Shown here: in pieces, positions 23,523 through 46,314 of the stretch
How positions within the stretch are numbered: the stretch's first letter is position 1
Layout of the letters: each line of letters opens with the position of its first letter
DNA from: a virus
Lineage: Duplodnaviria; Heunggongvirae; Uroviricota; Caudoviricetes
IMG/VR virus record: IMGVR_UViG_2562617057_000003
DNA: 47,732 bases
Reading direction: 5' to 3' (one strand)
Notes under the pieces: model-generated
Databases searched by the model: none
Told to the model about the DNA's origin: nothing
Seen by the model: only the letters and a program-made list of their open reading frames with translations
Program-made: the position numbers and the translations under genes

Positions 23523-25434
23523 TCACTCCTCCGGACAGCTTCGCTGCCAGTTCTTCAAGGGTCGGTTGTGCAGTTGCATCCTTGCGGGATGCCGCCAGCA
23601 CAGCCAGATCAAGTTGCCAGCGTTGCACGGACACACGTAATGCCGCATAGGCATACACCAGGCAGTCCAGCGCTTCGTTACGCCGCTTTTTGTTATCCCA
23701 CAACAGACGCATCTTTCCTTTTTCCCACTTTTCCACCAGTTCCTCCGCCACCAGTTGTTGTGCCTCTGTCTGCGAAAAAATCTCCGGATTATCAGGAAAG
23801 CGGATGGCATACGATGTGGCCTCATTCACAGGGGTGGGATCGGCCTTCATTCGGGCATAGAGAATTTCTTTTGCGGTATCCGTCCCCACCTCACACAGAT
23901 ACACACCCCGCTGATTGCGGGTTTTCGGCATGGTGATCACCGGCTTGCCATAGACAGAGGCACCTTTTACCGGCAGTACCCGGAAAACACCGTGTTTTTT
24001 TGACCTCTGATACACGATTTCGCCATCGATCCCCCCGATATCCCAGCAGACACGGGAAATGGTCATTTCGGTACCGTCTGCATGGCGGTATTTTTTATTG
24101 ATCGCCGCATCCACACGTAACAGCGTCTCTTCCTCATCAGGACGTCCCATGATGATGATTTTATCCACCAGAAAGGCTTCCTCTCCCGGAGCCCACCCCC
24201 AGACATACATCTCAAAACGGTTTCGCTGCGAGTCAATGCCCGCCGTCAGATAAACCACCCGGACAGGCACCGTTGCCGTGTAAGGCACAACCTTATCCAT
24301 CAGTACCTGGTGATCGAGTTTTTCGCCCACGGCCTCTTCCCAGGTCTCGCCCAGCGTGGTGTTCACAAAAGTTTTCACGCCGTTGGGATCTTTCAGTGCA
24401 TCCAGCCAGTCACAGACTATCTGTACCCAGGTGGTGAACGGACTGTACGCCGTCCATATATGGAAAGTGATGGAGCGCGGCGGCGGAATTTCATTACCCG
24501 AAGCACTGAAAAACGTCAGACCGTCACGCGTCCACATCCCGGTATTGTCACAAATCCAGCGCCCCCCGGTCTGATCAAGTTCAGACTGACGGATCACGCA
24601 GCCATTATGTTCACACAGGTAATACACCGTTTCCGGTTTACCCTTCTCCCATTTCAGGCCAAACGACGTCGCATCATCGCCAAACTTCAGATACTGCTCC
24701 TCCCCGCAATGAGGGCAAGGGACATAAAACCGCATGAAATGTGCAGATTCATTCGCGGCTTTTTCAATCTGGCAGGAGCCTTTGATTTTTGGCGTTGAAC
24801 CGCGTATGGATTTTGGCCATACCGAACCTTCAATACGTTTATCGCCAAGCAGTGTTGGCGAACCTTCTTTTTCCACATCCGGTTCAAACGAGGAGAGTTC
24901 GTCATAGCAGACCACATCGACAGATTTTTCACGGTAGTTTTTGGCAGCAGCACCACCCAAACACCAGAACCCCACACCAGAGGAAAAACGCTTCAGTGTG
25001 AGCGTATTATCCCGGTGTTTCCGGCCCAGCCAGGGAGAAAGTTTTTTCAGGCAAGGAACATCACGAATTGTTGCTTCCACGTGAGACTTCATAAAATCTT
25101 CAGCAGCTGAGTCCGTCGGCTGAAAAAGAAGAGTGTTGCGGGATTTGTGCTCAATAAAATACCCGATCACACCAAGCACCATTTTTGTATAACCAACACG
25201 GGCAGATTTAATCAGGTTAACTGTACGAATCTCGTCATTGCCCATGCAGTTCATGATGGCGACCTGAAACGGCAGCGTTTTCCATTCCCCCTCACCGTAT
25301 GACGATTCTTTAGGCAGGTAATAATTTTGATCGGCCCATTCTACAGCCGTCACCGGCAATACCCTGACCAGTGGCTGCAGTGCGATAGTGACTGCCACCA
25401 TCATATTACTCAGTTGTTGTTCTGATATATTCAT
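23506..25434 (-). CDS. A: Terminase large subunit A
   Basis: Starts MNISEQQLSNMM...TAVEWADQNYYLPKESSYGEGEWKTLPFQ (lambda A-like) at ATG 25434; overlaps the 3' end of Nu1 as in lambda; ORF-track start is an upstream extension. Confidence 0.93.
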   Translation of the reverse strand: MNISEQQLSNMMVAVTIALQPLVRVLPVTAVEWADQNYYLPKESSYGEGEWKTLPFQVAIMNCMGNDEIRTVNLIKSARVGYTKMVLGVIGYFIEHKSRNTLLFQPTDSAAEDFMKSHVEATIRDVPCLKKLSPWLGRKHRDNTLTLKRFSSGVGFWCLGGAAAKNYREKSVDVVCYDELSSFEPDVEKEGSPTLLGDKRIEGSVWPKSIRGSTPKIKGSCQIEKAANESAHFMRFYVPCPHCGEEQYLKFGDDATSFGLKWEKGKPETVYYLCEHNGCVIRQSELDQTGGRWICDNTGMWTRDGLTFFSASGNEIPPPRSITFHIWTAYSPFTTWVQIVCDWLDALKDPNGVKTFVNTTLGETWEEAVGEKLDHQVLMDKVVPYTATVPVRVVYLTAGIDSQRNRFEMYVWGWAPGEEAFLVDKIIIMGRPDEEETLLRVDAAINKKYRHADGTEMTISRVCWDIGGIDGEIVYQRSKKHGVFRVLPVKGASVYGKPVITMPKTRNQRGVYLCEVGTDTAKEILYARMKADPTPVNEATSYAIRFPDNPEIFSQTEAQQLVAEELVEKWEKGKMRLLWDNKKRRNEALDCLVYAYAALRVSVQRWQLDLAVLAASRKDATAQPTLEELAAKLSGGVNGYSR

Positions 25435-31591: not shown

Positions 31592-32152
31592 TTAAAGCCG
31601 CATCAACCGCTCCACCAGTTGCTCTTTACGGGCAACGATCCACCCGTGTTGCTCCAGATAAAATTTAAACCGTTCCAGAGTGCATACCATCACATCGGCA
31701 GGTACTTTTTCCGTGAAGTCGACCTGACCGTGTTTATCGAAGTGGATCAGTAATGCGCATCCATCATTTTCGATAGATGTGTTTTGTGCCGCTGGTGGTT
31801 GTTTTTGGTTGAAATAACAGTCTTCCAGTTTTTCGAATACTTCCCACGCCTGATCGGTTTCGAGCATTTTGGCGTGACGGGCTGCTCCGCGTTCTGTCCA
31901 GAGTATGAGCTTTCGGACATTTGGGGCGATCGTTTGAAAATCCCTTAAAGAGATTTTCAAATTTTGGAGGTCTGCGCCTTTCGCAATTATGTAGTGCTTC
32001 CCTTCTGCAAATCGCTCTTTATTACGGTGGTGATTTCTATGAATACACTCGACGCTACAGCCATATAGTTTGGCCAGTAACTCTGTAGTGACAACTGGGA
32101 GCTGGTTGTGTGTGATCGGGGAAAGAGTTTCGACAGAAACTTGAGTCGTCAT
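31592..32152 (-). CDS. Antirepressor-like protein (ORF6N-type N-terminal domain, Ant-type C-terminal domain)
   Basis: 186 aa; C-terminal ...ALLIHFDKHGQVDFTEKVPADVMVCTLERFKFYLEQHGW is paralogous to the C-terminus of the antirepressor at 42835-43392. Confidence 0.7.
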   Translation of the reverse strand: MTTQVSVETLSPITHNQLPVVTTELLAKLYGCSVECIHRNHHRNKERFAEGKHYIIAKGADLQNLKISLRDFQTIAPNVRKLILWTERGAARHAKMLETDQAWEVFEKLEDCYFNQKQPPAAQNTSIENDGCALLIHFDKHGQVDFTEKVPADVMVCTLERFKFYLEQHGWIVARKEQLVERLMRL

Positions 32153-32311
32153 GATAACGCCCTCTGGTTGATGGATTTAACTATCACCACCGTCAGGTTC
32201 CAATCATTGGGTGGTGAGACGTACAGGGTTGGAACTACCGGATCAACCAACCGGCGAGCCTTTCAGCTCCCCCATACGCCCCACCATTATTCAGATGTGC
32301 GTGTGCTTACG

Positions 32312-32338
32312 ACAATAAAAAACACGCTCGCGGCGTGT
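32312..32338 (-). terminator. tR'-like intrinsic terminator about 80 nt downstream of the late promoter
   Basis: Minus strand ACACGCCGCGAGCGTGT (6-bp stem) followed by TTTTTTATT. Confidence 0.6.
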
Positions 32339-32400
32339 GTCTGTCGCGGTTGAATATCCGGGGTTCCAATCCCGACGCCAGATTTTGCTGACGCGCGAGG

Positions 32401-32430
32401 AATATAGCCCCGGACAATGTATATGGTCAA
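32401..32430 (-). promoter_or_regulatory. Candidate late promoter pR' just downstream of Q
   Basis: Minus strand TTGACC - 18 nt - TATATT, starting 5 nt after the Q stop. Confidence 0.5.
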
Positions 32431-32434
32431 GCAC

Positions 32435-32821
32435 CTACATAATTCGTTCTACATATCTGTCCATCTCCAGCCGGATATCAAGCATCATCAACATGCCATC
32501 GATAACCCCTTCCGCCTTCTGCAGGCGCTTACCAACACAGGTATCCGAACATCCAAGTTTCCGTGCCAGACTCATAAAAGTCATTCCATATACGTAATAA
32601 TCCACCAGCAAATCGTGCAAATCCTGATTTTTCTTGTTTAACCGGGCCATACAGCCACAAATTATCATTGCATCATCATCAGAACACTGAGGACGTGATT
32701 TCACTTTCGACGGAATTAACCCTTTAAAACCAGCAGCGATCGACGCCCAGGATACATCTTCATGAGTGTTTGCAGCCCAAGCCCCCCACCGTTCCATAAC
32801 CTGCTGAATATCACGCGCCAT
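32435..32821 (-). CDS. Q: Late antiterminator Q (phage 82 / 21 type)
   Basis: [61 protein letters not shown]... zinc-binding Q82-like; ATG 32821 with RBS AGGTG. Confidence 0.88.
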
Positions 32822-32826
32822 CGTTA

Positions 32827-33189
32827 TCACCTGTGATTTCGTAAATCTTCACGCCCAGCCGCCCCCCCAGGAACGCGCTGACCGCGCACAATATTGATTT
32901 CATCAAACTGCTCGTCGTCTATGAGAAGTCCGGCATGCGTCAGCGCATCCAGTGGTGCTTTCAGGATATTGTCCAGGTCACGACGACGTTTATCCGGTGG
33001 CTCTGCAATAATCTTTATCGCCAGCCTTCCGGACAGGTTTAATTTCAGCCGCTGCTGGCGAACAATAAGCGCCACATCACGGCGATAACGCTCACCGGCT
33101 TTTGATACAAAATATGTGCTGCCACGACGTCGCCAGTAAGTGTTCACCGTTGGCGGGTAAGGCAAAACAAATTCTATGCGTTCAGTCAT
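32827..33189 (-). CDS. rusA: RusA Holliday-junction resolvase
   Basis: 120 aa, ...[13 protein letters not shown]...[30 protein letters not shown] RusA motifs. Confidence 0.9.
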
Positions 33190-34701: not shown

Positions 34702-34857
34702 TTACTCCTCAGGTTCGTAAGCTGTGAAGACAGCGACCTCCGTCTGGCCGGTTCGGATTCGTACCTCGCAGAGGTCTTTCCTCGTTACCAGTGCCGTCAC
34801 AATGACGGTAATACAGATGACGATCAGGGCGACTAACATCGCCTTTTGCTGCTTCAT
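34702..34857 (-). CDS. hok: Hok/Gef-family type I toxin
   Basis: 51 aa MKQQKAMLVALIVICITVIVTALVTRKDLCEVRIRTGQTEVAVFTAYEPEE, near-identical to E. coli HokD/RelF-type toxins. Confidence 0.9.
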   Translation of the reverse strand: MKQQKAMLVALIVICITVIVTALVTRKDLCEVRIRTGQTEVAVFTAYEPEE

Positions 34858-35068
34858 AGCCTGCTTCTCCTTGCCTTTCGGCACGTAAGAGGCTAACCTA
34901 GATTTGCCGTTCATAGATTGAGCCTCAGATTAATGTTAAGCGTCTTGCCGGACGCGTAATGTTAACTGGGGCTTTTCTCTATCTGCCTTTTGGTGTTCAT
35001 GCCTGAGACAGATAGCCTCAAGCACCCGCTGCAATTCTACTTAACTCTCCTTTTCCCGCAAACCGTTT
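34858..35068 (-). promoter_or_regulatory. hok mRNA leader (mok-like upstream ATG; expected site of antisense Sok RNA)
   Basis: About 210-nt leader with an in-frame upstream ATG at 34914 and several hairpins, as in hok/sok loci; Sok promoter not pinpointed. Confidence 0.45.
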
Positions 35069-40234: not shown

Positions 40235-40696
40235 ATGGGCGTACTCGAAATCAGTGCTCTTAGAATTAAGATGCTTCTATTGGCAAAAGGCTGGAGCCAA
40301 GCAGAACTTGCGCGCAGAATTGGTATTGCTCAACAATCCGTCCAAAGGTGGGTTTGTGGCATCTCAAGCCCTACAGCAGCCAACCTAGATAAACTATCTG
40401 ATGTGACTGGATTTCCTCAGTATTGGTTTTTCTTACCATTAAATGAAGAAAATAAGGACAGGGCACAGGATATATTAAAAATAACCCCTACGCAAAAGGA
40501 ACTACTTCAAACATTTGAGGCATTTCCAGAGGAAGAGCAACAGCAAATGCTTAAAGATATGAAGGAGAAAAAAGAGACAATGGATCGTATAGTTGCAAAG
40601 TGGCTAGCAGCACAACAAAAAGTTCCTAGGCAGGATTACCAGTACTTACAAGACGAGGTTCACCATGAACACGGCCCTTTCACCAATGGTTTCTGA
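40235..40696 (+). CDS. paaR: Second DicA-like HTH regulator (PaaR-like regulator of the adjacent toxin-antitoxin pair)
   Basis: 153 aa; HTH IKMLLLAKGWSQAELARRIGIAQQSVQRW; C-terminal domain paralogous to the upstream repressor; 3' end overlaps the antitoxin gene. Confidence 0.65.
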   Translation: MGVLEISALRIKMLLLAKGWSQAELARRIGIAQQSVQRWVCGISSPTAANLDKLSDVTGFPQYWFFLPLNEENKDRAQDILKITPTQKELLQTFEAFPEEEQQQMLKDMKEKKETMDRIVAKWLAAQQKVPRQDYQYLQDEVHHEHGPFTNGF

Positions 40697-40856
40697 ATTT
40701 GAAACCGTCGAGCAAGAAAATAGTTATAACGAATGGCTGCGTGCAAAAGTGGCCGCAAGCCTTGCTGATCCACGTCCAGCCATTCCCCATGACGAAGTTG
40801 AACGCAGAATGGCTGAACGCTTTGCTAACATGCGCAAGGAACGGAGCAAACAGTAA
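40665..40856 (+). CDS. paaA: PaaA-type antitoxin (ParE-associated antitoxin)
   Basis: 63 aa MNTALSPMVSEFETVEQENSYNEWLRAKVAASLADPRPAIPHDEVERRMAERFANMRKERSKQ; stop abuts the toxin ATG (TAAATG). Confidence 0.72.
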   Translation: MNTALSPMVSEFETVEQENSYNEWLRAKVAASLADPRPAIPHDEVERRMAERFANMRKERSKQ

Positions 40857-41144
40857 ATGTTACCGGTTTTATGGCTCGAAAGCGCAGATGCCGACCTAGA
40901 TAATATAACCAGCTATATTGCACGTTTTGACATAGATGCGGCAGAACGTTTGTGGAAACGCTTAAGGACTTGCGTCCTGCCATTATCTGAACATCCGTAT
41001 TTATACCCGCCAAGCGACAGAGTGCCTGGTTTGCGTGAAATTGTAGCTCACCCCAATTACATCATTCTGTACCGCGTGACAATTTCAGGCATTGAAATTG
41101 TTAACGTAGTTCACGCCCGCCGACAGTTCCCTGTAACACCTTAA
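40857..41144 (+). CDS. parE: ParE/RelE-family toxin
   Basis: 95 aa MLPVLWLESADADLDNITSYIARFDIDAAERLWKRL...IEIVNVVHARRQFP, ParE-like. Confidence 0.82.
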   Translation: MLPVLWLESADADLDNITSYIARFDIDAAERLWKRLRTCVLPLSEHPYLYPPSDRVPGLREIVAHPNYIILYRVTISGIEIVNVVHARRQFPVTP

Positions 41145-41177: not shown

Positions 41178-41407
41178 TGCCAAAGAGTTAAGTTAAATAT
41201 TGACTGTTTAGTTTATTTTTGCATAAACTAGTTTTACCAACCCACTCCGCCCCACAGAACGCAGGGCAATACTTCGAGTTACCAGGCAGTGGTCAGGGGT
41301 TAAGTAGCCAGCCCGAGGCGTAAGAACATGACGGCAGGGTTCAATCTTTAACTATGCAGCAGGTTTTTTGTTCCGCCACCCCGGCGTTAAGGGGAAATGA
41401 GGTCAGC

Positions 41408-41560
41408 ATGGATACTATCGATCTTGGCAACAACGAATCTCTGGTGTGCGGCGTGTTCCCTAACCAGGATGGAACGTTTACCGCCATGACGTATACCAAA
41501 AGCAAAACGTTTAAAACCGAATCTGGCGCGCGTTGCTGGTTAGCCAGAAACACTGACTGA
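41408..41560 (+). CDS. Hypothetical 50-aa early-left protein
   Basis: ATG 41408 with RBS GAGG 5 nt upstream; promoter-like TTGACT-18-TAAACT at about 41210-41240. Confidence 0.4.
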   Translation: MDTIDLGNNESLVCGVFPNQDGTFTAMTYTKSKTFKTESGARCWLARNTD

Positions 41561-41571
41561 TGAGGCTGACG

Positions 41572-41937
41572 ATGGAATTTAAAGATTTACCGTCTGATGT
41601 ACAGAAAACAGCAGCTCATACATTGCATTCTGTGCTGCGAGAAATCGGGAAAGATATTGCAAGCGAGCCAGCAAAAGATCTGGCCCGGAAAATCAAGACC
41701 GCTTTCGTTGAGCTTTATAATGTTGGCACTGACTCTGAAACTGTCGAGACCAAGACCGTAAGTTCACCAATATTCTCACTTGAGCCAAGCGTATTATCAG
41801 GTGAAATATGCACCGAGATTTCCAGCGAACTGCTTCCGGTAATACGAGAAGCAATTCGCCGTCGCGGTTTGGATGGAAGTTATGATCATGACGTTCTGCA
41901 AGTTCTCAGGACAATGGTGACTTCACTGGGGATTTGA
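41572..41937 (+). CDS. Hypothetical 121-aa early-left protein
   Basis: ATG 41572 with RBS GAGG; alternative ATG 41560 overlaps the upstream stop. Confidence 0.5.
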   Translation: MEFKDLPSDVQKTAAHTLHSVLREIGKDIASEPAKDLARKIKTAFVELYNVGTDSETVETKTVSSPIFSLEPSVLSGEICTEISSELLPVIREAIRRRGLDGSYDHDVLQVLRTMVTSLGI

Positions 41938-42106
41938 TCCCTGCGTCCTCTAAGCTTTTGATATAGCGGTCCTCCAAGAAGCGGTAAATTTTGTCGAAAT
42001 CATCTTTTCCCTCTGGTTTATTCAGAGGATTACAGGACCCGTAAGTAGCGGCATACATTTCAACCGTTTTATCAAAAATATAAGAGACAAATTCTTCTTT
42101 AGTCAT
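41906..42106 (-). CDS. Hypothetical 66-aa protein, convergent with and overlapping the preceding gene
   Basis: ATG 42106 with RBS AAGGA 7 nt upstream; MTKEEFVSYIFDKTVEMYAATYGSCNPLNKPEGKDDFDKIYRFLEDRYIKSLEDAGIK. Confidence 0.35.
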   Translation of the reverse strand: MTKEEFVSYIFDKTVEMYAATYGSCNPLNKPEGKDDFDKIYRFLEDRYIKSLEDAGIKSPVKSPLS

Positions 42107-42306
42107 ATAGATTTCCTTCTTGGTTATTCGGGATAAGAAGGATACCACCTCGCCTGACGTGGTTAAAAGCAGGCACACAACGCGAAATGACGCGGCGGTA
42201 AGTATGGCGGAGTTATTCCTTCCCCGTTGAGGACACCGGGTTGTCAGGTTGACCATACGCTTAAGTGACAACCACGCCACAACACTCCATGTTGATTGGT
42301 ACCTTT

Positions 42307-42348
42307 GGCGGCATCAGTTTCATTGCTGGCTGATGTCCGCCCTTTTTA
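42307..42348 (+). terminator. Strong intrinsic terminator (tL-like)
   Basis: GGCGGCATCAG - 12-nt loop - CTGATGtCCGCC followed by CTTTTTAAA. Confidence 0.65.
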
Positions 42349-42834
42349 AAGTGAATTTTGTGATGCGGTGAATGCGGCTCAGCGCACGCGGCACAGTTAA
42401 AAAGCGATTAGTTCCCCCGTATCGGGTGGTTATGGGTTTCCCTGTATCCGGCGTTAATTGTTAACTGGTTAACGTCACCTGGAGGCACCAGGCACCGCAT
42501 CAACAAAGTTCACTTCGGTGATGAAAGGAAAGAGAAAATGTTGAATGTAGCTATTGAAAACCAGAACGGGTGGAATTATAGTGCACCTGCACCTTATAAA
42601 ACGGGTGCCGGGCGTGGAAACCCGAACGTTACTCGAGCGCATAGCCGCGCTGAAGCGGTTTTTTTATGCGTAATGCACAGCTCCATTCAAATTATGGTGG
42701 GATGTGCAGGGCAGTCGCAAGACTGGCCGGGTTCTCGAGTGACCGGTATTTCCACCCCTGTACGTCTCACCACCCTTATGGTCGTGGAAAACCTCGGTGG
42801 TGAGTTAATTAACTTATCACTCGAGGATGCCATC

Positions 42835-43392
42835 ATGGCTACTATCCCTGCCCTTTCTCACCCTGACGTAACCATCGAAAATGGTCGCGCTGTCACTACG
42901 TCTATTGCGATCGCAGAGTTCTTTGGCAAGCGTCACGACAATGTGTTACGTGCCATCGCAAATACTGAATGCTCACCTGAATTTAACGCCCTCAATTTTG
43001 AGGACGTCACCTACACTGACGCCAAAGGCGAAAAACGCCCGATGTACCAAATCACCAAAAACGGCTTCGTTTTCCTGGTGATGGGATTCACTGGCAAAAA
43101 AGCCGCTGCATTTAAAGAAGCCTACATTGCTGAGTTCGATCGCATGGAGGCCGAACTGCGCCAGAATAACACCCCACCTGCTGACAAGATGATTCCGGGT
43201 GATGGTCGCACTCTGGTTGTTCACTTCGACAAATTCGGCAATGTCGAATTCACCGAAACCGTTCCTGATGGCGCACTGGTCTGTACCCTGGAGACTTTCC
43301 GGTTTTATCTGGAAAAACAGGGATGGACTCTTGTTAACCGGGGCGCAATTAAAAATATGACTGTGGAACAATTACTCAAAATTCATTGTTGA
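42835..43392 (+). CDS. Rha-family antirepressor (Ant)
   Basis: 185 aa from ATG 42835 (RBS GAGGA); N-terminal Rha-type ...AVTTSIAIAEFFGKRHDNVLRAIA...; C-terminal Ant-type domain shared with 31592-32152; the ORF-track upstream extension is probably non-coding leader. Confidence 0.8.
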   Translation: MATIPALSHPDVTIENGRAVTTSIAIAEFFGKRHDNVLRAIANTECSPEFNALNFEDVTYTDAKGEKRPMYQITKNGFVFLVMGFTGKKAAAFKEAYIAEFDRMEAELRQNNTPPADKMIPGDGRTLVVHFDKFGNVEFTETVPDGALVCTLETFRFYLEKQGWTLVNRGAIKNMTVEQLLKIHC

Positions 43393-43402
43393 GGACGCAA
43401 TA

Positions 43403-43591
43403 ATGGAGACGTTATTACCAAACGTTAATACGTCTGAAGGTTGTTTTGAAATTGGTGTCACTATCAGTAACCCTGTATTTACTGAAGATGCCATTAACAA
43501 GAGAAAACACGAACGGGAGCTATTAAATAAAATATGCATTGTTTCAATGCTGGCTCGTTTACGTCTGATGCCAAAAGGATGTGCACAATGA
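43403..43591 (+). CDS. Hypothetical 62-aa protein
   Basis: ATG with RBS GAGGA 7 nt upstream; stop overlaps the next ATG (ATGA). Confidence 0.45.
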   Translation: METLLPNVNTSEGCFEIGVTISNPVFTEDAINKRKHERELLNKICIVSMLARLRLMPKGCAQ

Positions 43592-43779
43592 ATACAGTAT
43601 TTGCACTCGTTCTGACGGTTTTTCTTGTTTCCGGTGAACCGGTTGACATGGTTACTGGCGTATACAGCTCAATGAAAGAATGTAGGACTGCCGCAGCGAA
43701 ACAGAAAATTCCCGGTGACTGTTATCCGGTCGATAAAGTTATTCACCAGGATAATATCGAAATCCCGGCAGGTCTTTAA
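43588..43779 (+). CDS. Small predicted secreted protein (63 aa with N-terminal signal peptide)
   Basis: ATG 43588 with RBS AAGGA 8 nt upstream; MNTVFALVLTVFLVSGEPVDM... signal-like N-terminus, two Cys. Confidence 0.45.
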   Translation: MNTVFALVLTVFLVSGEPVDMVTGVYSSMKECRTAAAKQKIPGDCYPVDKVIHQDNIEIPAGL

Positions 43780-43872
43780 AACAGTTCCGTAATAAATATC
43801 CGGTTTCATTCTTATATGCCAGCAATGGCAGGGATTTGTTCACCCTTAAATCTGTGATGAGGTTTATCAATA

Positions 43873-46314
43873 ATGAGCACTGATAAAGAAGAATTTGCAC
43901 TATATTGCGAAGCAAAAAATGACAAAGTAAGAAAACGCCTGGGAATTAAAGGTGGTTTTTACTGGACTACAGCAAAAAAATTATCTGTTGCAATCTCCCG
44001 CTGCATTACCGCAATGGATGACAACGATTATGATGAAGACGACTTTAAAAAACCCGTCCGCGTCAATTTGCCCGTTGTTGACGACCTTCCGCCAGAAGGC
44101 GTGTTTGATACTGAATTCTGCAACCGCTATGAAAAAGGCGGGAAAGATGGCATCACAATGACATTTATCGGCCCTTCCCCCTCTGTTCAGGACAAACCAG
44201 CCAGCACTGACAATACCAACATCAACGGCGAAGACATGACTGAGATTGAGGAGAGCATGCTTCTGCCTGTCTCCGGTCAGGAACTGCCCATTCGTTGGCT
44301 TGCTCAACACGGCAGCGAAAAACCAGTAACGCACGTTTCACGCGACGAACTCCAGGCATTACACATTGCATGGGCTGAAGAACTACCGGCTGTTACTGCC
44401 CTGGCTATTTCGCATAAAACCAGTCTGCTCGACTCGCTGGAGATTCGCGACCTCCACAAACTGGTTCGTGACACTGACAAAATTTTCCCTAATCCTGGTA
44501 ATTCAGACCTGGGACTAATAACTGCTTTTTTCGAAGCATACCTGGACGCTGACTACACTGATCGGGGTCTGCTGACAAAAGAGTGGATGAAAGGAAATCG
44601 TGTTTCACGCATCACCCGCACGGCTTCCGGTGCTAATGCTGGCGGTGGGAACAAAACCGATCGCAATCCGAATTTAGTACACACCCTCGACACACTGGAT
44701 GTGGAGATTGCAGCAGCCACACTTCCGATGGATTTTAATATTTATGAAATTCCGGGCAGCGTTTATCGTCGCGCAAAAGAAGTAGTTCTGAACAAAGAAA
44801 GTCCGTTCAAAGAATGGTCCGCAGCACTTCGTGCAACCCCGGGTATTCTGGACTATTCCCGCGCCGCTATTTTTGCACTTATCCGAAGCGCACACCCTGA
44901 ATTTTATCACTACCCGGGACGCCTTCAGGGGTATATCAACGCCTATTTGACGGAAACTGATCACGAGAACCCCAGCAAGGAAACTCTCACAGCTGCCCGG
45001 CATACGCCGGAAAAAGATATCCTGGAAGAAATTAACCGCGAGGTGGTTACTGAGCGTGAAACAGAAGAAGAAAAACCACAACCATCTGACGCAATGGCAG
45101 GTGAACAGGCAACAACTGAAACAATGGAACCGGATACAACTGAACATGGCCAGAACGCGCAGTCGCTGGATGCTCAGTCGCAGGTGAGTTCCGCTAACCA
45201 AGTAAAAGTCACCGCTGACGAAGTAAACAAAATTATGCAGGCAGCCAATATCAGCCAGCCTGACGCCGATAAGTTACTTGCTGTATCGCGTGGTGAATTT
45301 GTTGAGGGGATTAGCGACCCGAATGATCCGAAATGGGTCAAAGGGATCCAGACTCGCGATTCTGTGAACCAGAACCAGCATGAATCGGAACGGAACGACC
45401 AAAAAGCGGAACAAAACAGCCCAAATGCGTTACAAAACGAGCCAGAAACGAAACAATCCGAACCAGTGGCGCAACAGGAAGTGGAAAAAGTCTGCACCGC
45501 CTGCGGTCAGAGCGGTGGCGGCAACTGCCCTGATTGTGGTGCGGTGATGGGTGACGCAACATGCCTGGAAATATTCGATGGAGAGAATCAGCCTGAAGTT
45601 CAGGAAGATGATCCGGAGGAAATGGAAGGCGCTGAACATCCACACAAGGAGAACACTGGCGGCAATCAGCATCACGATAGCGATAATGAAACTGGCGAGA
45701 CGGCAGATCACTCAATTAAGGTGAACGGTCATCAAGAAATCACATCCACCAGCAGGACGTGTGACCATCTAATGATCGACCTTGAAACCATGGGAAAAAA
45801 TCCTGATGCCCCGATCATCTCAATAGGTGCAATATTTTTCGATCCGCAAACCGGAGATATGGGACCGGAATTTAGTAAGACTATCGATCTGGAAACTGCT
45901 GGCGGAGTCATTGATCGGGACACCATTAAATGGTGGCTTAAGCAATCACGCGAAGCGCAATCTGCCATTATGACCGATGAAATCCCGTTAGATGATGCAC
46001 TGTTACAATTGCAGGAATTTATCGACGAAAACTCCGGTGAATTTTTTGTTCAGGTCTGGGGAAATGGAGCCAACTTCGACAACACGATTTTGCGCCGTTC
46101 ATACGAACGGCAGGGGATCCCCTGCCCGTGGCGTTACTACAACGATCGCGATGTACGCACAATCGTTGAGCTGGGGAAAGCCATAGACTTCGATGCCAGA
46201 ACGGCTATTCCATTCGAAGGTGAGCGCCATAATGCACTTGATGACGCCCGTTACCAGGCAAAATACGTTTCAGTTATCTGGCAAAAACTGATCCCGAGTC
46301 AGGCTGATTTTTAA
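43873..46314 (+). CDS. Large exonuclease: RecE-like N-terminal region, acidic linker with zinc ribbon, C-terminal DnaQ-like (DEDDh) 3'-5' exonuclease domain
   Basis: 813 aa; C-terminal motifs LMIDLETMG (Exo I), WGNGANFD (Exo II), [11 protein letters not shown] (Exo III); [16 protein letters not shown] zinc ribbon; N-terminal segment resembles what I recall of RecE. Confidence 0.75.

What the first reader, a model, noticed from the sequence alone, without database searches (positions are those of the whole stretch)
42281..42834. 550-bp non-coding leader upstream of the antirepressor with a strong terminator, a 14-bp perfect palindrome and a hairpin-plus-T7 element
The ant gene is preceded by a long ORF-poor region. 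It contains a terminator (42307-42348), the perfect palindrome GTTAACTGGTTAAC (42460-42473) and a nested hairpin followed by seven T (42638-42670) about 170 nt before the ant ATG. Antirepressor genes are typically held off by dedicated repressors or antisense RNA or attenuation, so this looks like an uncharacterised control region, possibly encoding a small RNA.
Basis: seen in the sequence. Interest (0 to 1): 0.5.

Follow-up and report, generated by a model that had tools for sequence, protein, structure and literature searches.

The report
Known IsrK–C4 RNA switch plus DicF
The 550-bp "leader" is made of described phage RNA elements: a DicF-like small RNA with its processing domain, then the IsrK/C4 antisense-RNA switch (known from P1, P4 and Gifsy-1) that can mask the ribosome-binding site of the downstream Rha-type antirepressor-like gene; it is real but ordinary.

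Summary
The "strong terminator" (42307-42348) is the 3' hairpin of a divergent DicF-like sRNA (42294-42347). The "14-bp perfect palindrome" is not a palindrome. It is the loop plus 3' arm of an RNA hairpin (42450-42476), supported by compensatory changes, inside a structured spacer that E. coli K-12 also has between dicF and dicB. The "hairpin plus T7" is the terminator of an IsrK sRNA (42589-42665, Rfam 61 bits), which has its own conserved promoter. Its two single-stranded segments match a1/b1 inside IsrK and a2/b2 in the leader, and b2 covers the rha Shine-Dalgarno. Across 81 related modules, 16 a' and 35 b' variants each co-vary with their targets. The layout is colinear with P1 immI (a1-b1-c4-a2-b2-icd/ant). 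The likely mechanism, inferred from homologues, is that C4 blocks rha translation and IsrK counteracts it. This is a new member of a known kind, of low interest. One oddity remains: the rha reading frame stays open across IsrK and C4 without any protein-coding substitution pattern.

The parts
42294..42347 (+). DicF-like sRNA (divergent variant).
   Evidence: Rfam DicF scores 38.8 bits, E 8.7e-7, below the gathering score of 48. It is syntenic and alignable with K-12 dicF. The loop differs from K-12.
42350..42514 (+). Structured spacer RNA domain. It is closed by a long-range stem of about 21 bp (42350-42370 with 42493-42514), which is a candidate RNase III site of the dicBF-type transcript. 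It gives a weak STnc100-like match.
   Evidence: RNAfold gives z = -3.4. The segment is conserved in the K-12 dicF-dicB spacer. The 72-nt RNase III form of DicF ends about 19 nt after the terminator (PMC5069750), which falls inside the 5' strand. STnc100 scores 31.6 bits against a gathering score of 47.
42450..42476 (+). RNA hairpin GGCGUUAAUU / loop GUUAACU / GGUUAACGUC.
   Evidence: Loci L088 and L109 carry CGCAGAUU...GGUCUGCG, three compensatory pair changes with the loop unchanged. The G-U pairs are possible only on the + strand.
42478..42492 (+). Small hairpin CCUGG-AGGCA-CCAGG in the same domain.
   Evidence: The STnc100 consensus has CCGGG-AGGCA-CCCGG at the aligned place.
42538..42540 (+). 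ATG at which RefSeq starts the 284-aa 'Rha family' CDS. The 99-codon extension overlaps the promoter, IsrK and C4.
   Evidence: Pfam Phage_ASH hit. No coding signature. pLDDT 21-30.
42554..42582 (+). Sigma-70-type promoter of isrK: TTGAAA, 17 nt, TATAGT. The predicted start is near 42589.
   Evidence: The -35 TTGA and the -10 TATAGT/TATATT are kept at the same place in divergent modules whose upstream DNA is unrelated. The spacing from the -10 to a1 is the same as in P1 P1c4.
42589..42665 (+). IsrK sRNA (the a1b1 element, P4 seqA). It has hairpin 1, hairpin 2 displaying a1, the b1 linker, and an intrinsic terminator.
   Evidence: Rfam isrK scores 61.2 bits against a gathering score of 50. There is covariation in hairpin 1 and in the extended terminator stem.
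42614..42620 (+). a1 box GUGGAAA, in the loop of IsrK hairpin 2. It is complementary to a'.
42629..42637 (+). b1 box UUACUCGAG. It is complementary to b'.
42638..42670 (+). IsrK terminator with an extended outer stem CGCAU/AUGCG.
42690..42777 (+). C4 antisense RNA: a 17-bp closing stem, two hairpins, the b' loop and the a' joint.
   Evidence: Rfam C4 scores 76.7 bits against a gathering score of 45. The RNAfold MFE structure equals the family structure, at -44 kcal/mol. Five of the five pairs of hairpin 1 covary.
42732..42742 (+). b' (UUCUCGAGUGA), in the loop of C4 hairpin 2.
42749..42755 (+). a' (UUUCCAC), in the single-stranded joint of C4.
42784..42790 (+). a2 box GUGGAAA in the rha leader.
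42796..42804 (+). GGUGGUGAG, complementary to the 3' strand of the C4 closing stem (CUCACCACC, 42766-42774). This gives an alternative hairpin that would display a2 in its loop in the unprocessed transcript.
   Evidence: GGTGGTGA is nearly invariant in 40 modules.
42817..42827 (+). b2 box UCACUCGAGGA. It forms 11 bp with b' (one G-U) and includes the Shine-Dalgarno GAGGA (42823-42827).
42835..43392 (+). rha-type gene (185 aa): a Phage_pRha domain plus a C-terminal domain shared with the antirepressor of the second module.
   Evidence: Pfam E 2e-32. PHROGs assigns Rha-like and anti-repressor families. Coding signature 0.38/0.24/0.71.
32144..32430 (-). Second, hetero-specific promoter-IsrK-C4-a2b2 module in the same prophage. 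It lies before an ORF6N antirepressor and after a Q-like gene.

Best explanation
The interval is a composite of two units on the + strand of the prophage's early-left, dicBF-type operon.

Unit 1 (42294-42514) is a DicF-like sRNA followed by a structured spacer. The long closing stem of that spacer is the probable RNase III processing site of the polycistronic transcript.

Unit 2 (42554-42834) is a P1-immI-type RNA switch inserted between that spacer and dicB.
- A constitutive-looking promoter starts transcription near 42589.
- Most transcripts stop at the IsrK terminator and give the short IsrK RNA, which carries the a1 and b1 boxes.
- Read-through transcripts contain C4. By homology, C4 is cut out as a stable, roughly 77-88-nt RNA.
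- C4's two exposed segments (a', b') pair with a2 and b2 in the leader. Because b2 contains the rha Shine-Dalgarno, this pairing blocks rha translation, and probably, through polarity, lowers expression of dicB and the genes after it.
- IsrK carries the same two boxes as the leader, so it competes for C4 in cis or in trans and relieves the block.
- The balance between termination and read-through at IsrK therefore sets whether the Rha-type antirepressor-like protein is made.

Shown here: family membership, complementarity, covariation, overlap with the SD, promoter conservation, colinearity with P1, synteny with K-12, and a non-coding substitution pattern.

Inferred from homologous systems: processing of C4, repression, and the anti-antisense role of IsrK.
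For: - Rfam: C4 scores 76.7 bits and isrK 61.2 bits, both above their gathering scores. DicF (38.8) and STnc100 (31.6) are sub-threshold matches at the expected places.
- Promoter: a TTGAAA-17-TATAGT promoter ends 7 nt before IsrK and is conserved where the flanks are unrelated.
- Complementarity: a' UUUCCAC matches a1 and a2 (GUGGAAA). b' matches b1 (9 bp) and b2 (11 bp including GAGGA).
- Covariation without an alignment: in 81 unique related modules, 16 a' and 35 b' variants are each matched in cis. Cis complementarity averages 7-8.2 nt against 4.4-4.8 nt in trans. The summed score is 1226, against 803 +/- 18 in 500 permutations with a maximum of 859.
- Covariation on the alignment: for a1b1:a'b', 92.5% of cells are paired and 15 of 16 pairs change on both sides. 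The covariation score is 0.665, against 0.163 when shuffled and 0.08-0.17 when slid.
- Internal helices: 95% of cells are paired and 16 pairs show compensatory change.
- SD overlap: b2 ends 6-15 nt before the ATG in 65 of 67 modules, and an SD-like motif lies within or abuts b2 in 55 of 67.
- P1: the curated record annotates the same order, with promoter, a1, b1, c4, a2, b2, then icd/ant and 'repression of icd ant translation'. The spacings are nearly identical, and Rfam gives the same three hits there.
- Gifsy-1 experiments: IsrK supplied in trans raises anrP translation 139-fold. G28/G31 of IsrK pair with C162/C159, which I read as a1:a' from the homologous positions in this window. A processed RNA, STnc1160, lies downstream of IsrK (PMC4825925).
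- Unit 1: it aligns with the K-12 dicF-dicB spacer, while K-12 lacks 42506-43375. There are compensatory changes in the hairpin. RNase III makes a 72-nt DicF (PMC5069750).
- Specificity: the cognate C4-target duplexes are 7-10 kcal/mol stronger than the cross pairs with the second module in the window.
Against: - There are no expression data for this locus. The transcription start, termination efficiency, C4 processing and repression are all inferred.
- The related modules were collected with the 3' strand of the C4 closing stem as bait, so that stem cannot show covariation, and the sample is one clade.
- The column-based count for a2b2 was poor (56.8% paired) because MAFFT misaligns that stretch. 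Support for a2b2 rests on the alignment-free test.
- The c4-a1b1 model (24.8 bits), DicF and STnc100 are all below their gathering scores.
- The Gifsy-1 authors explain activation by a structure switch and translation of a uORF (orf45) rather than by titration of a C4 repressor. Constitutive STnc1160 made IsrK-mediated growth arrest more pronounced rather than relieving it.
- In P4 the homologous RNA acts on transcription termination, not on translation.
- The rha frame is kept open across IsrK and C4, which the simple model does not predict.
Confidence: 0.78

Rival explanations
1. P4-type action. C4 pairing with a1/b1 and a2/b2 on the nascent transcript causes premature transcription termination, either at the IsrK terminator or Rho-dependent further downstream. 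The primary effect would then be transcriptional, not a block of the SD.
For: P4 seqA/CI/seqC gives the same Rfam hits in the same order. CI RNA is described as a termination factor (PMC4825925 discussion; PMC3632133). b1 lies directly 5' of the IsrK terminator stem. IsrK in trans also raised anrP transcription 8-fold in Gifsy-1.
Against: b2 overlaps the SD in most modules, as in P1, where translational repression is the annotated mechanism. No intrinsic terminator follows a2/b2. This explanation is not exclusive of the best one, since P1 couples the two through Rho polarity (from memory of Biere et al. 1992).
Confidence: 0.3
2. Gifsy-1-type structure switch with uORF translation. The read-through RNA folds so that a1/b1 pair with a'/b' in cis (an inactive form). 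IsrK in trans opens it, and ribosomes start at the AUG at the 5' end of C4 (42694). Here that AUG is in frame with rha, so ribosomes would read straight into rha.
For: The MFE fold of 42589-42850 pairs the IsrK a1/b1 region with the C4 a'/b' region in cis. orf45 and its coupling to anrP were shown experimentally. The frame from the C4 AUG is fused to rha in 23 of 26 sequences whose downstream gene begins MAT. Three of those 26 are ORF6N-type, so this is every Rha-type module in that set. In seven ORF6N-type modules the uORF ends in an ATGA overlap with the gene start. There are frame-preserving indels.
Against: No SD precedes AUG 42694 (sequence). The uORF is truncated to 8-40 codons in many ORF6N-type modules, including the window's own second copy at 14 codons. 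This model does not use a2/b2, yet a2/b2 co-vary with C4 as strongly as a1/b1 do.
Confidence: 0.3
3. The last 297 nt are coding. rha is a 284-aa protein with an N-terminal 'Ash' domain, as RefSeq, Pfam and PHROGs have it, and the RNA-family matches are incidental.
For: Pfam Phage_ASH E 5.5e-14. phrog_995 covers the whole 284 aa. PGAP calls it this way in the genomes inspected. All of the best 120 clusters from the homologue search carry the long form, at 232-294 aa and mostly 282-284 aa. There are no stops in this frame in any Rha-type module, against 13 and 22 polymorphic stop sites in the other two frames.
Against: Variable sites by codon position are 0.32/0.35/0.33 in the extension against 0.38/0.24/0.71 in rha proper. 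Synonymous:non-synonymous codon differences are 1039:4160 against 8187:7942. AlphaFold gives pLDDT 21-30 for residues 1-108, while the Rha domain reaches 56-93. The start codon is not conserved in divergent members, whereas the internal promoter is. The Ash model also matches the old P4 'cI' ORF, which overlaps the CI RNA gene. The ORF6N-type modules keep the RNAs without any such ORF.
Confidence: 0.06
4. GTTAAC-TG-GTTAAC is a protein operator and, with the two terminators, forms an attenuator dedicated to ant.
For: The 50-nt block around it is identical between the window, K-12 and strain VL7S7.
Against: It is not a palindrome. K-12 keeps the block although it has no rha. In L088 and L109 one GTTAAC is replaced, with compensating changes in the upstream arm, while the middle GTTAAC (the loop) stays. 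G-U pairs fit only the + strand RNA. It lies more than 110 nt upstream of the isrK start and outside that transcript. No LexA-type box occurs in 42100-42900.
Confidence: 0.03

Closest known systems
immI region of phages P1/P7 (P1c4 promoter, a1, b1, c4 RNA, a2, b2, icd, ant1/2)
   Same: The order and spacing of all elements match. The distance from the -10 to a1 is 32 nt in both. The start codon lies 7 nt after b2 here and 10 nt after b2 in P1. b2 is fused to the SD in both. The Rfam hits are the same (C4, c4-a1b1/isrK). The regulated operon holds an antirepressor-type gene and a cell-division inhibitor, icd in P1 and dicB here.
   Different: The host element is a lambdoid prophage, not a plasmid prophage. 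No C1-type operator or second promoter was identified. The first gene is a Rha-domain protein, not icd/ant. The a/b specificities differ. The IsrK part scores above Rfam's isrK gathering score here but below it in P1 (35 bits).
Gifsy-1 antQ-isrK-orf45(STnc1160)-anrP locus of Salmonella (Hershko-Shalev et al. 2016, PMC4825925)
   Same: Both have a promoter, IsrK with an intrinsic terminator, a read-through transcript holding a C4-like RNA, and an antirepressor-like gene. The window's second module (32144-32430, minus strand) has the same neighbours, a Q-like gene upstream and an ORF6N antirepressor downstream.
   Different: The module under study sits in the early-left operon between dicF and dicB and precedes a Rha-domain gene. 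The orf45 equivalent is fused in frame to rha. The specificity boxes differ.
P4 immunity: seqA - CI RNA (seqB) - seqC
   Same: Rfam isrK and C4 match P4 at 8615-8692 and 8420-8507 in the same order. Barquist et al. 2013 equate IsrK/C4 with seqA/CI and note such systems in lambdoid prophages.
   Different: In P4 the output is premature transcription termination of the replication operon. No antirepressor is involved. P4-like members in my sample precede a 77-aa ORF and a primase-sized 830-834-aa ORF.
dicF-dicB segment of the Qin prophage of E. coli K-12
   Same: Window 42207-42505 aligns with the K-12 dicF flank, dicF and the dicF-dicB spacer, including an identical 50-nt block around the 'palindrome'. 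The neighbours are also shared: DUF1391/ydfA upstream, and dicB and DUF1482/ydfD downstream.
   Different: K-12 lacks the promoter-IsrK-C4-rha block (42506-43375). The DicF loop differs (UUUCAUUGCUGG against UUUUACUCCGUGAC), so the ftsZ-pairing sequence of K-12 DicF is not kept.
P22 sar RNA / ant
   Same: An antisense RNA controls an antirepressor (review PMC12197685).
   Different: sar is transcribed from the opposite strand of its target. Here the antisense RNA is encoded on the same strand, upstream of its target, and acts through two short boxes. No convincing minus-strand promoter was found.

Membership tests
C4 antisense RNA (Rfam RF01695; P1/P7 c4, P4 CI) | Covariance-model score at or above the curated gathering score | tested here: met
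   76.7 bits against 45, full-length match 1-87.
C4 antisense RNA (Rfam RF01695; P1/P7 c4, P4 CI) | Long closing stem enclosing two hairpins, with an exposed loop (b') and joint (a') | tested here: met
   The RNAfold MFE structure equals the family structure, at -44 kcal/mol. Hairpin 1 has 5 of 5 pairs with compensatory change, and the closing stem is 100% paired in 40 modules.
C4 antisense RNA (Rfam RF01695; P1/P7 c4, P4 CI) | a'/b' complementary to two box pairs on the same strand, one upstream (a1b1) and one downstream (a2b2) | tested here: met
   There is strong cis covariation over 16 a' and 35 b' variants.
C4 antisense RNA (Rfam RF01695; P1/P7 c4, P4 CI) | b2 overlaps the ribosome-binding site of the first downstream gene | tested here: met
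   b2 (42817-42827) contains GAGGA, and the ATG is at 42835. The same holds in 55 of 67 modules and in P1.
C4 antisense RNA (Rfam RF01695; P1/P7 c4, P4 CI) | Excised from a longer transcript (RNase P at the 5' end) and represses the downstream gene | not testable with these tools
   This needs Northern blots or primer extension, RNase P assays and reporter fusions.
IsrK / a1b1 element / P4 seqA (Rfam RF01394, RF03163) | Covariance-model score at or above the gathering score | tested here: met
   isrK scores 61.2 bits against 50. The overlapping c4-a1b1 model scores only 24.8 against 46.7, so the match is to the IsrK form of the element.
IsrK / a1b1 element / P4 seqA (Rfam RF01394, RF03163) | Own promoter directly upstream and a Rho-independent terminator, immediately 5' of a C4 gene | tested here: met
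   Promoter 42554-42582 and terminator 42643-42665. C4 starts 25 nt later. The promoter is conserved.
IsrK / a1b1 element / P4 seqA (Rfam RF01394, RF03163) | Hfq binding; trans-activation of the downstream antirepressor gene | not testable with these tools
   This was shown only for Gifsy-1 (PMC4825925).
DicF sRNA (Rfam RF00039) | Covariance-model score at or above the gathering score | tested here: not met
   38.8 bits against 48. I therefore call it DicF-like, not DicF.
DicF sRNA (Rfam RF00039) | Position in a dicB operon between ydfA-type genes and dicB, with conserved flanks | tested here: met
   Alignment with K-12. Pfam finds DUF1391, DicB and DUF1482 as neighbours.
DicF sRNA (Rfam RF00039) | Sequence that pairs with the ftsZ ribosome-binding site | tested here: inconclusive
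   The K-12 loop sequence UUUUACUCCG is replaced by UUUCAUUGCUGG. Full-length duplex energies with ftsZ were no better than shuffles for either RNA, so that test has no power.
STnc100 sRNA (Rfam RF02076) | Covariance-model score at or above the gathering score | tested here: not met
   31.6 bits against 47, and a partial match (22-154 of 206). This is a resemblance only.
Ash protein family (Pfam PF10554) | HMM score above the curated cut-off | tested here: met
   52.9 bits against 26 for the translation of 42538-42834.
Ash protein family (Pfam PF10554) | The stretch evolves and folds as a protein | tested here: not met
   There is no third-position excess, and synonymous:non-synonymous is 0.25 against 1.03 in rha. 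pLDDT is 21-30. The model also matches the translation of the P4 CI RNA locus.
   The domain is present (E 2e-32). PHROGs best hits are 'transcriptional regulator' and 'Rha-like', with weaker anti-repressor families. The C-terminal part is shared with the ORF6N antirepressor of module 2. Activity is not testable here.

The most novel reading that the evidence does not exclude
In Rha-type modules, and in P4-like modules, the reading frame that runs through the isrK promoter, IsrK, C4 and the a2/b2 leader is kept free of stop codons and in frame with the downstream gene, although the encoded peptide is not conserved. The most novel reading is that ribosome transit across the RNA module is itself part of the switch. 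On transcripts made from the upstream operon promoter after induction, translation starting at 42538 (or at the C4 AUG, 42694) would unfold C4 and the a2/b2 site. It would then deliver an N-terminally extended Rha that escapes antisense control, whereas transcripts from the isrK promoter stay under C4 control. The locus would then be a stretch that serves both as RNA genes and as a translated spacer, selected for openness rather than for sequence.
Probability: 0.15. Interest if true: 0.6.

Novelty: new member of a known kind. Interest (0 to 1): 0.22.

Why it matters
The finding mainly matters for annotation. In the RefSeq records inspected, the IsrK and C4 genes of this module lie under a CDS annotated as a 'Rha family' protein. 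The module matches in 776 of 5,426 complete E. coli genomes, and 131 phage records, many of them Stx2a-converting phages, match part of the wider 1.6-kb query. A Pfam family (Ash) appears to rest largely on translations of these RNA genes. Biologically, the locus places a P1-type RNA immunity switch in front of rha and dicB in the early-left operon of a lambdoid prophage that also carries a second, hetero-specific copy before another antirepressor. The many co-varying box variants (16 x 35 seen) indicate a large set of mutually orthogonal specificities, which could be used to study cross-talk between co-resident prophages and satellites. None of this changes what is known about how such switches work.

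Tried and rejected
- tRNA/tmRNA scan of the window found nothing.
- LexA-box search found no site in 42100-42900, so SOS control of the isrK promoter, as in N15 and the Gifsy antirepressors, is not supported.
- The column-based covariation count for a'/b' against a2/b2 on the MAFFT alignment was uninformative, because the a2-b2 stretch is misaligned. I used the alignment-free test instead.
- Full-length RNAduplex of DicF or the DicF-like RNA with the ftsZ 5' region was no better than shuffles even for K-12 DicF, so the test is powerless.
- The 45-aa ORF at 42666-42803, which has the same length as Gifsy-1 orf45, is in a different frame from the real orf45 equivalent and is reduced to 2 codons in close relatives, so I rejected it.
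- A PDB sequence search with the 284-aa ORF gave no hit.
- The AlphaFold model was used only for confidence along the chain. The alignment is shallow, and the C-terminal domain is also poorly predicted, so a low pLDDT alone is weak evidence.
- The Faubladier & Bouche 1994 paper on dicF-like sequences is not held.
- The minus-strand promoter-like site at 42720-42691 matches 9 of 12 positions, a chance-level match (3 sites found against 2.7 expected), and I did not pursue it.
Full report
**What is in the sequence.**

I read 41800-43900 and listed the ORFs.

- The first hairpin is real. GGCGGCATCAG/CTGATGTCCGCC followed by T5 lies at 42307-42347, and the terminator scan finds it.
- The hairpin with seven T is also real. 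The stem AGCCGC/GCGGTT plus T7 (42643-42665) sits inside an outer stem CGCAT/ATGCG (42638-42670).
- The "14-bp perfect palindrome" is not one. The reverse complement of GTTAACTGGTTAAC is GTTAACCAGTTAAC. It is two copies of the self-complementary hexamer GTTAAC two bases apart, and such 6-N2-6 inverted repeats occur 14 times in the window against about 11.7 expected.
- The region is not strictly ORF-free. RefSeq annotates the long form.

**What the parts are.**

A scan of the window against Rfam at the curated thresholds gave an IsrK sRNA at 42589-42665 (61.2 bits, threshold 50) and a C4 antisense RNA at 42690-42777 (76.7 bits, threshold 45). It also gave a second IsrK/C4 pair on the minus strand at 32207-32394.

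A permissive scan of 42050-42900 added three sub-threshold matches:

| Family | Coordinates | Bits | Threshold |
|---|---|---|---|
| DicF | 42294-42342 | 38.8 | 48 |
| STnc100 (partial) | 42354-42507 | 31.6 | 47 |
| c4-a1b1 | overlapping IsrK | 24.8 | 46.7 |

The hairpin plus T7 is the IsrK terminator. The main regulator, C4, went unnoticed.

A sigma-70-type promoter, TTGAAA-17-TATAGT (42554-42582), ends seven bases before the first base of IsrK.

The downstream genes are as follows:

- a Phage_pRha-domain protein (42835-43392);
- dicB (43403-43591);
- a DUF1482/ydfD homologue;
- an exonuclease VIII-like gene.

The upstream gene at 41354-41560 is a DUF1391/ydfA homologue. This is the early-left, dicBF-type operon of a lambdoid prophage.

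**The upstream half (42281-42537).**

Window 42207-42505 aligns with the dicF flank, dicF and the dicF-dicB spacer of the K-12 Qin prophage, including an identical block around the "palindrome". K-12 then runs straight into the dicB ribosome-binding site. Relative to K-12, the window therefore carries an extra block, 42506-43375, that holds the promoter, IsrK, C4 and rha.

Folded as RNA, 42205-42535 is more stable than shuffles (z = -3.4). It forms a domain closed by a long-range stem of about 21 bp (42350-42370 with 42493-42514). Within the domain there is a hairpin GGCGUUAAUU / GUUAACU / GGUUAACGUC (42450-42476) and a small hairpin CCUGG-AGGCA-CCAGG.

Two related loci (L088, L109) have CGCAGAUU...GGUCUGCG in place of CGUUAAUU...GGUUAACG. 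That is three compensatory pair changes with the loop unchanged. The two G-U pairs at the stem's top are possible only on the + strand. This argues for an RNA hairpin, not a DNA operator.

DicF is known to be released by RNase E at its 5' end. Its 3' end is made either by termination (53 nt) or by RNase III cleavage (72 nt) (PMC5069750). Nineteen nucleotides past the terminator falls inside the 5' strand of the long stem, so this stem is the likely RNase III site. That assignment is an inference.

The DicF-like RNA keeps the GGCGG...CCGCCC-U5 base but has a different loop from K-12 DicF, and other loci carry further loop variants. I could not establish or exclude ftsZ targeting.

**The downstream half (42554-42834): a three-way RNA pairing system.**

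C4 folds on its own into the family structure, with a 17-bp closing stem and two hairpins (-44 kcal/mol). This leaves two segments exposed: b' (UUCUCGAGUGA, 42732-42742, the loop of hairpin 2) and a' (UUUCCAC, 42749-42755, the joint). The exact complements are as follows:

- a1, GUGGAAA (42614-42620), in the loop of IsrK hairpin 2;
- b1, UUACUCGAG (42629-42637);
- a2, GUGGAAA (42784-42790), in the leader;
- b2, UCACUCGAGGA (42817-42827), also in the leader.

b2 includes the Shine-Dalgarno GAGGA, seven bases before ATG 42835.

**Is the pairing more than chance?**

I collected 120 IMG/VR loci that share the 3' strand of the C4 closing stem and parsed 81 unique modules. They carry 16 different a' and 35 different b' sequences.

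- In each module the matching boxes are present both upstream and downstream. Cis complementarity averages 7.0 (a1), 7.0 (a2), 7.0 (b1) and 8.2 (b2) nt, against 4.4-4.8 nt between modules with different boxes. The summed score is 1226, against 803 +/- 18 (maximum 859) in 500 permutations.
- On an alignment of 40 modules, the a1b1:a'b' pairs are 92.5% paired, and 15 of 16 pairs show changes on both sides. The covariation score is 0.665, against 0.163 for shuffles and 0.08-0.17 for slid partners.
- The internal helices are 95% paired, with 16 pairs showing compensatory change. These include IsrK hairpin 1, the extended terminator stem and C4 hairpin 1.
- The column count for a2b2 failed because MAFFT misaligns that stretch. 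The alignment-free result stands in for it.
- b2 ends 6-15 nt before the start codon in 65 of 67 modules, and an SD-like motif lies in or against b2 in 55 of 67.
- The window's own second module has different boxes (a UUGGAAC, b AUCAACCA). The cognate C4-target duplexes are 7-10 kcal/mol stronger than the cross pairs.

**Comparison with described systems.**

- **P1.** The window is colinear with it. The -10 to a1 distance is 32 nt in both, and b2 is fused to the SD in both. Rfam gives the same three hits in P1.
- **P4.** P4 gives isrK and C4 hits in the same order at its seqA/cI locus. Barquist et al. 2013 state that IsrK and C4 are the structural homologues of P4 seqA and CI RNA, and that lambdoid Salmonella prophages carry such systems (PMC3632133).
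- **Gifsy-1.** In Gifsy-1 the isrK promoter makes a short IsrK and a read-through isrK-orf45-anrP RNA. IsrK in trans raises anrP translation 139-fold and transcription 8-fold. IsrK G28/G31 pair with C162/C159, which I read as a1:a' from the homologous positions in this window. A processed RNA, STnc1160, lies where C4 is (PMC4825925).

**How it most likely works.**

Transcription from 42554-42582 mostly ends at the IsrK terminator. Read-through RNA yields C4. C4 pairs through a' and b' with a2 and b2 and occludes the rha ribosome-binding site, probably with polarity on dicB. IsrK carries decoy copies of the two boxes and relieves the block.

The sequence-level statements are shown here. The processing, the repression and the relief are inferred from P1, P4 and Gifsy-1.

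Two variants remain open, and neither excludes the main model. One is a P4-type effect on transcription termination. The other is the Gifsy-1 structure switch, in which ribosomes start at the AUG at the 5' end of C4 (42694). In this module that AUG is in frame with rha. The minimum-energy fold of the whole read-through RNA does pair a1/b1 with a'/b' in cis, as in the Gifsy-1 "structure A".

**Is the last 297 nt coding?**

The translation of 42538-42834 matches Pfam Phage_ASH and PHROG 995. PGAP places the module under a Rha CDS in the listed hits, and 776 of 5,426 complete E. coli genomes match it. Four results argue against a protein:

- Variable sites by codon position are 0.32/0.35/0.33 in the extension against 0.38/0.24/0.71 in rha proper. 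Synonymous:non-synonymous codon differences are 1039:4160 against 8187:7942.
- AlphaFold with 60 homologues gives pLDDT 21-30 for residues 1-108, while the Rha domain reaches 56-93.
- The ATG is not conserved in divergent members, while the promoter inside the ORF is.
- The same Pfam model matches the ORF once annotated as the P4 cI protein, which overlaps the CI RNA gene.

I conclude that the stretch evolves as RNA genes.

**An observation I cannot explain.**

All 28 unique Rha-type modules keep this frame open for at least 300 nt upstream of the rha ATG, and indels in three divergent lineages sum to multiples of three. Polymorphic stop sites per frame are as follows:

| Module type | Frame 0 (rha frame) | Frame 1 | Frame 2 |
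|---|---|---|---|
| Rha-type | 0 | 13 | 22 |
| P4-like | 0 | 11 | 5 |
| ORF6N-type | 12 | 17 | 13 |

In the sequences whose gene begins MAT, three frame-0 stop sites were counted, each in three sequences. I attribute all three sites to the three ORF6N-type sequences in that group. This attribution is inferred from the matching counts and was not checked per sequence.

Openness without peptide conservation suggests that ribosome transit may matter. I give this a probability of about 0.15.

**Verdict.**

The region is an sRNA and antisense control region, but one of a well-described kind, and its upstream half belongs to the DicF unit rather than to ant control.
- It is a new member of a known kind, and its interest is low.

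Noticed in passing
window 32144-32430 (minus strand); neighbours 32435-32830 and 31592-32152: This is a second promoter-IsrK-C4-a2b2 module in the same prophage, with different boxes (a UUGGAAC, b AUCAACCA). It lies between a Q-like antiterminator gene and an ORF6N antirepressor, which is the Gifsy-1 antQ-isrK-anrP arrangement. The prophage therefore carries two mutually orthogonal C4 switches, one in each early operon.
   Followed up: partly
window 42538-42834; loci L002-L121: The rha reading frame has no stop codons across the isrK promoter, IsrK and C4 in all 28 Rha-type modules, and none in the P4-like modules. Indels preserve the frame. The other two frames carry 13 and 22 (Rha-type) and 11 and 5 (P4-like) polymorphic stop sites. 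The stretch nevertheless shows no coding substitution pattern and no predicted fold. This is unexplained.
   Followed up: partly
window 42538-42834; L124 (P4, X51522) 8168-8584: Pfam Phage_ASH (PF10554) and PHROGs 995, 821, 6928 and 3960 match translations of the IsrK/C4 RNA locus. The family also matches the obsolete P4 'cI protein' ORF that overlaps the CI RNA gene. RefSeq PGAP annotates the RNA genes as the N-terminus of a 'Rha family' CDS, and no ncRNA feature is present.
   Followed up: yes
window 42506-43375 against L122 (K-12 Qin) 2435-2610: K-12 Qin has the dicF-dicB spacer but lacks the promoter-IsrK-C4-rha block. The two junctions in the window share a short similar motif (CAACAAAGTTCA and CTCAAAATTCA), which suggests a deletion or insertion by short-homology recombination.
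   Followed up: partly
window 42294-42347; loci L005, L011, L014, L018, L022 and others: DicF-like RNAs at this position fall into several variants. They share the terminator base GGCGG...CCGCCC-U5 but have different loops. Only some carry the K-12 loop that pairs with the ftsZ ribosome-binding site, so the targets of the other variants may differ.
   Followed up: partly
window 42766-42774 and 42796-42804: The 3' strand of the C4 closing stem (CUCACCACC) is complementary to a nearly invariant GGUGGUGAG just after a2. In the unprocessed transcript this hairpin would compete with the C4 fold and display a2 in its loop.
   Followed up: no
loci L004, L006, L012, L031, L039, L079: In my sample, about a quarter of the modules that share this C4 3' strand sit before a 77-aa ORF (MANRK...). 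In three of the six inspected (L004, L031, L039) this is followed by an 830-834-aa ORF, which I read as P4-like satellites. The same closing stem is thus shared between lambdoid prophages and satellites, which is relevant to the idea of cross-talk raised in PMC3632133.
   Followed up: no
window 979-1022 and 1038-1286: Two perfect LexA-type boxes (CTGTTTATCCATACAG and CTGTATAAAAACACAG) lie directly upstream of a DinI-family gene at the far end of the prophage.
   Followed up: partly
window 1887-3638: This is a 583-aa protein with a type III secretion LRR and a NEL E3-ligase domain (an IpaH/SspH-type effector), carried as prophage cargo.
   Followed up: no
window 34702-35027 (minus strand): This is a hok/sok toxin-antitoxin locus. 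The sok RNA scores 112 bits in Rfam, and a Hok/Gef-family ORF is present.
   Followed up: no
window 40235-41144: An HTH regulator, a PaaA2-type antitoxin and a ParE toxin (a paaR2-paaA2-parE2-like module) lie between the immunity region and the ydfA-like gene.
   Followed up: no
window 41909-42106 (minus strand): A 66-aa ORF (PHROG 34441, function unknown) is encoded on the opposite strand inside the early-left operon. It overlaps the 3' end of the 125-aa + strand gene.
   Followed up: no
L125 (P1, AF234172) 23792-23893: The curated P1 record annotates a 'dicF-like region' upstream of the ban operon, so P1 also carries both DicF-like and C4 elements, although not adjacent to each other.
   Followed up: no
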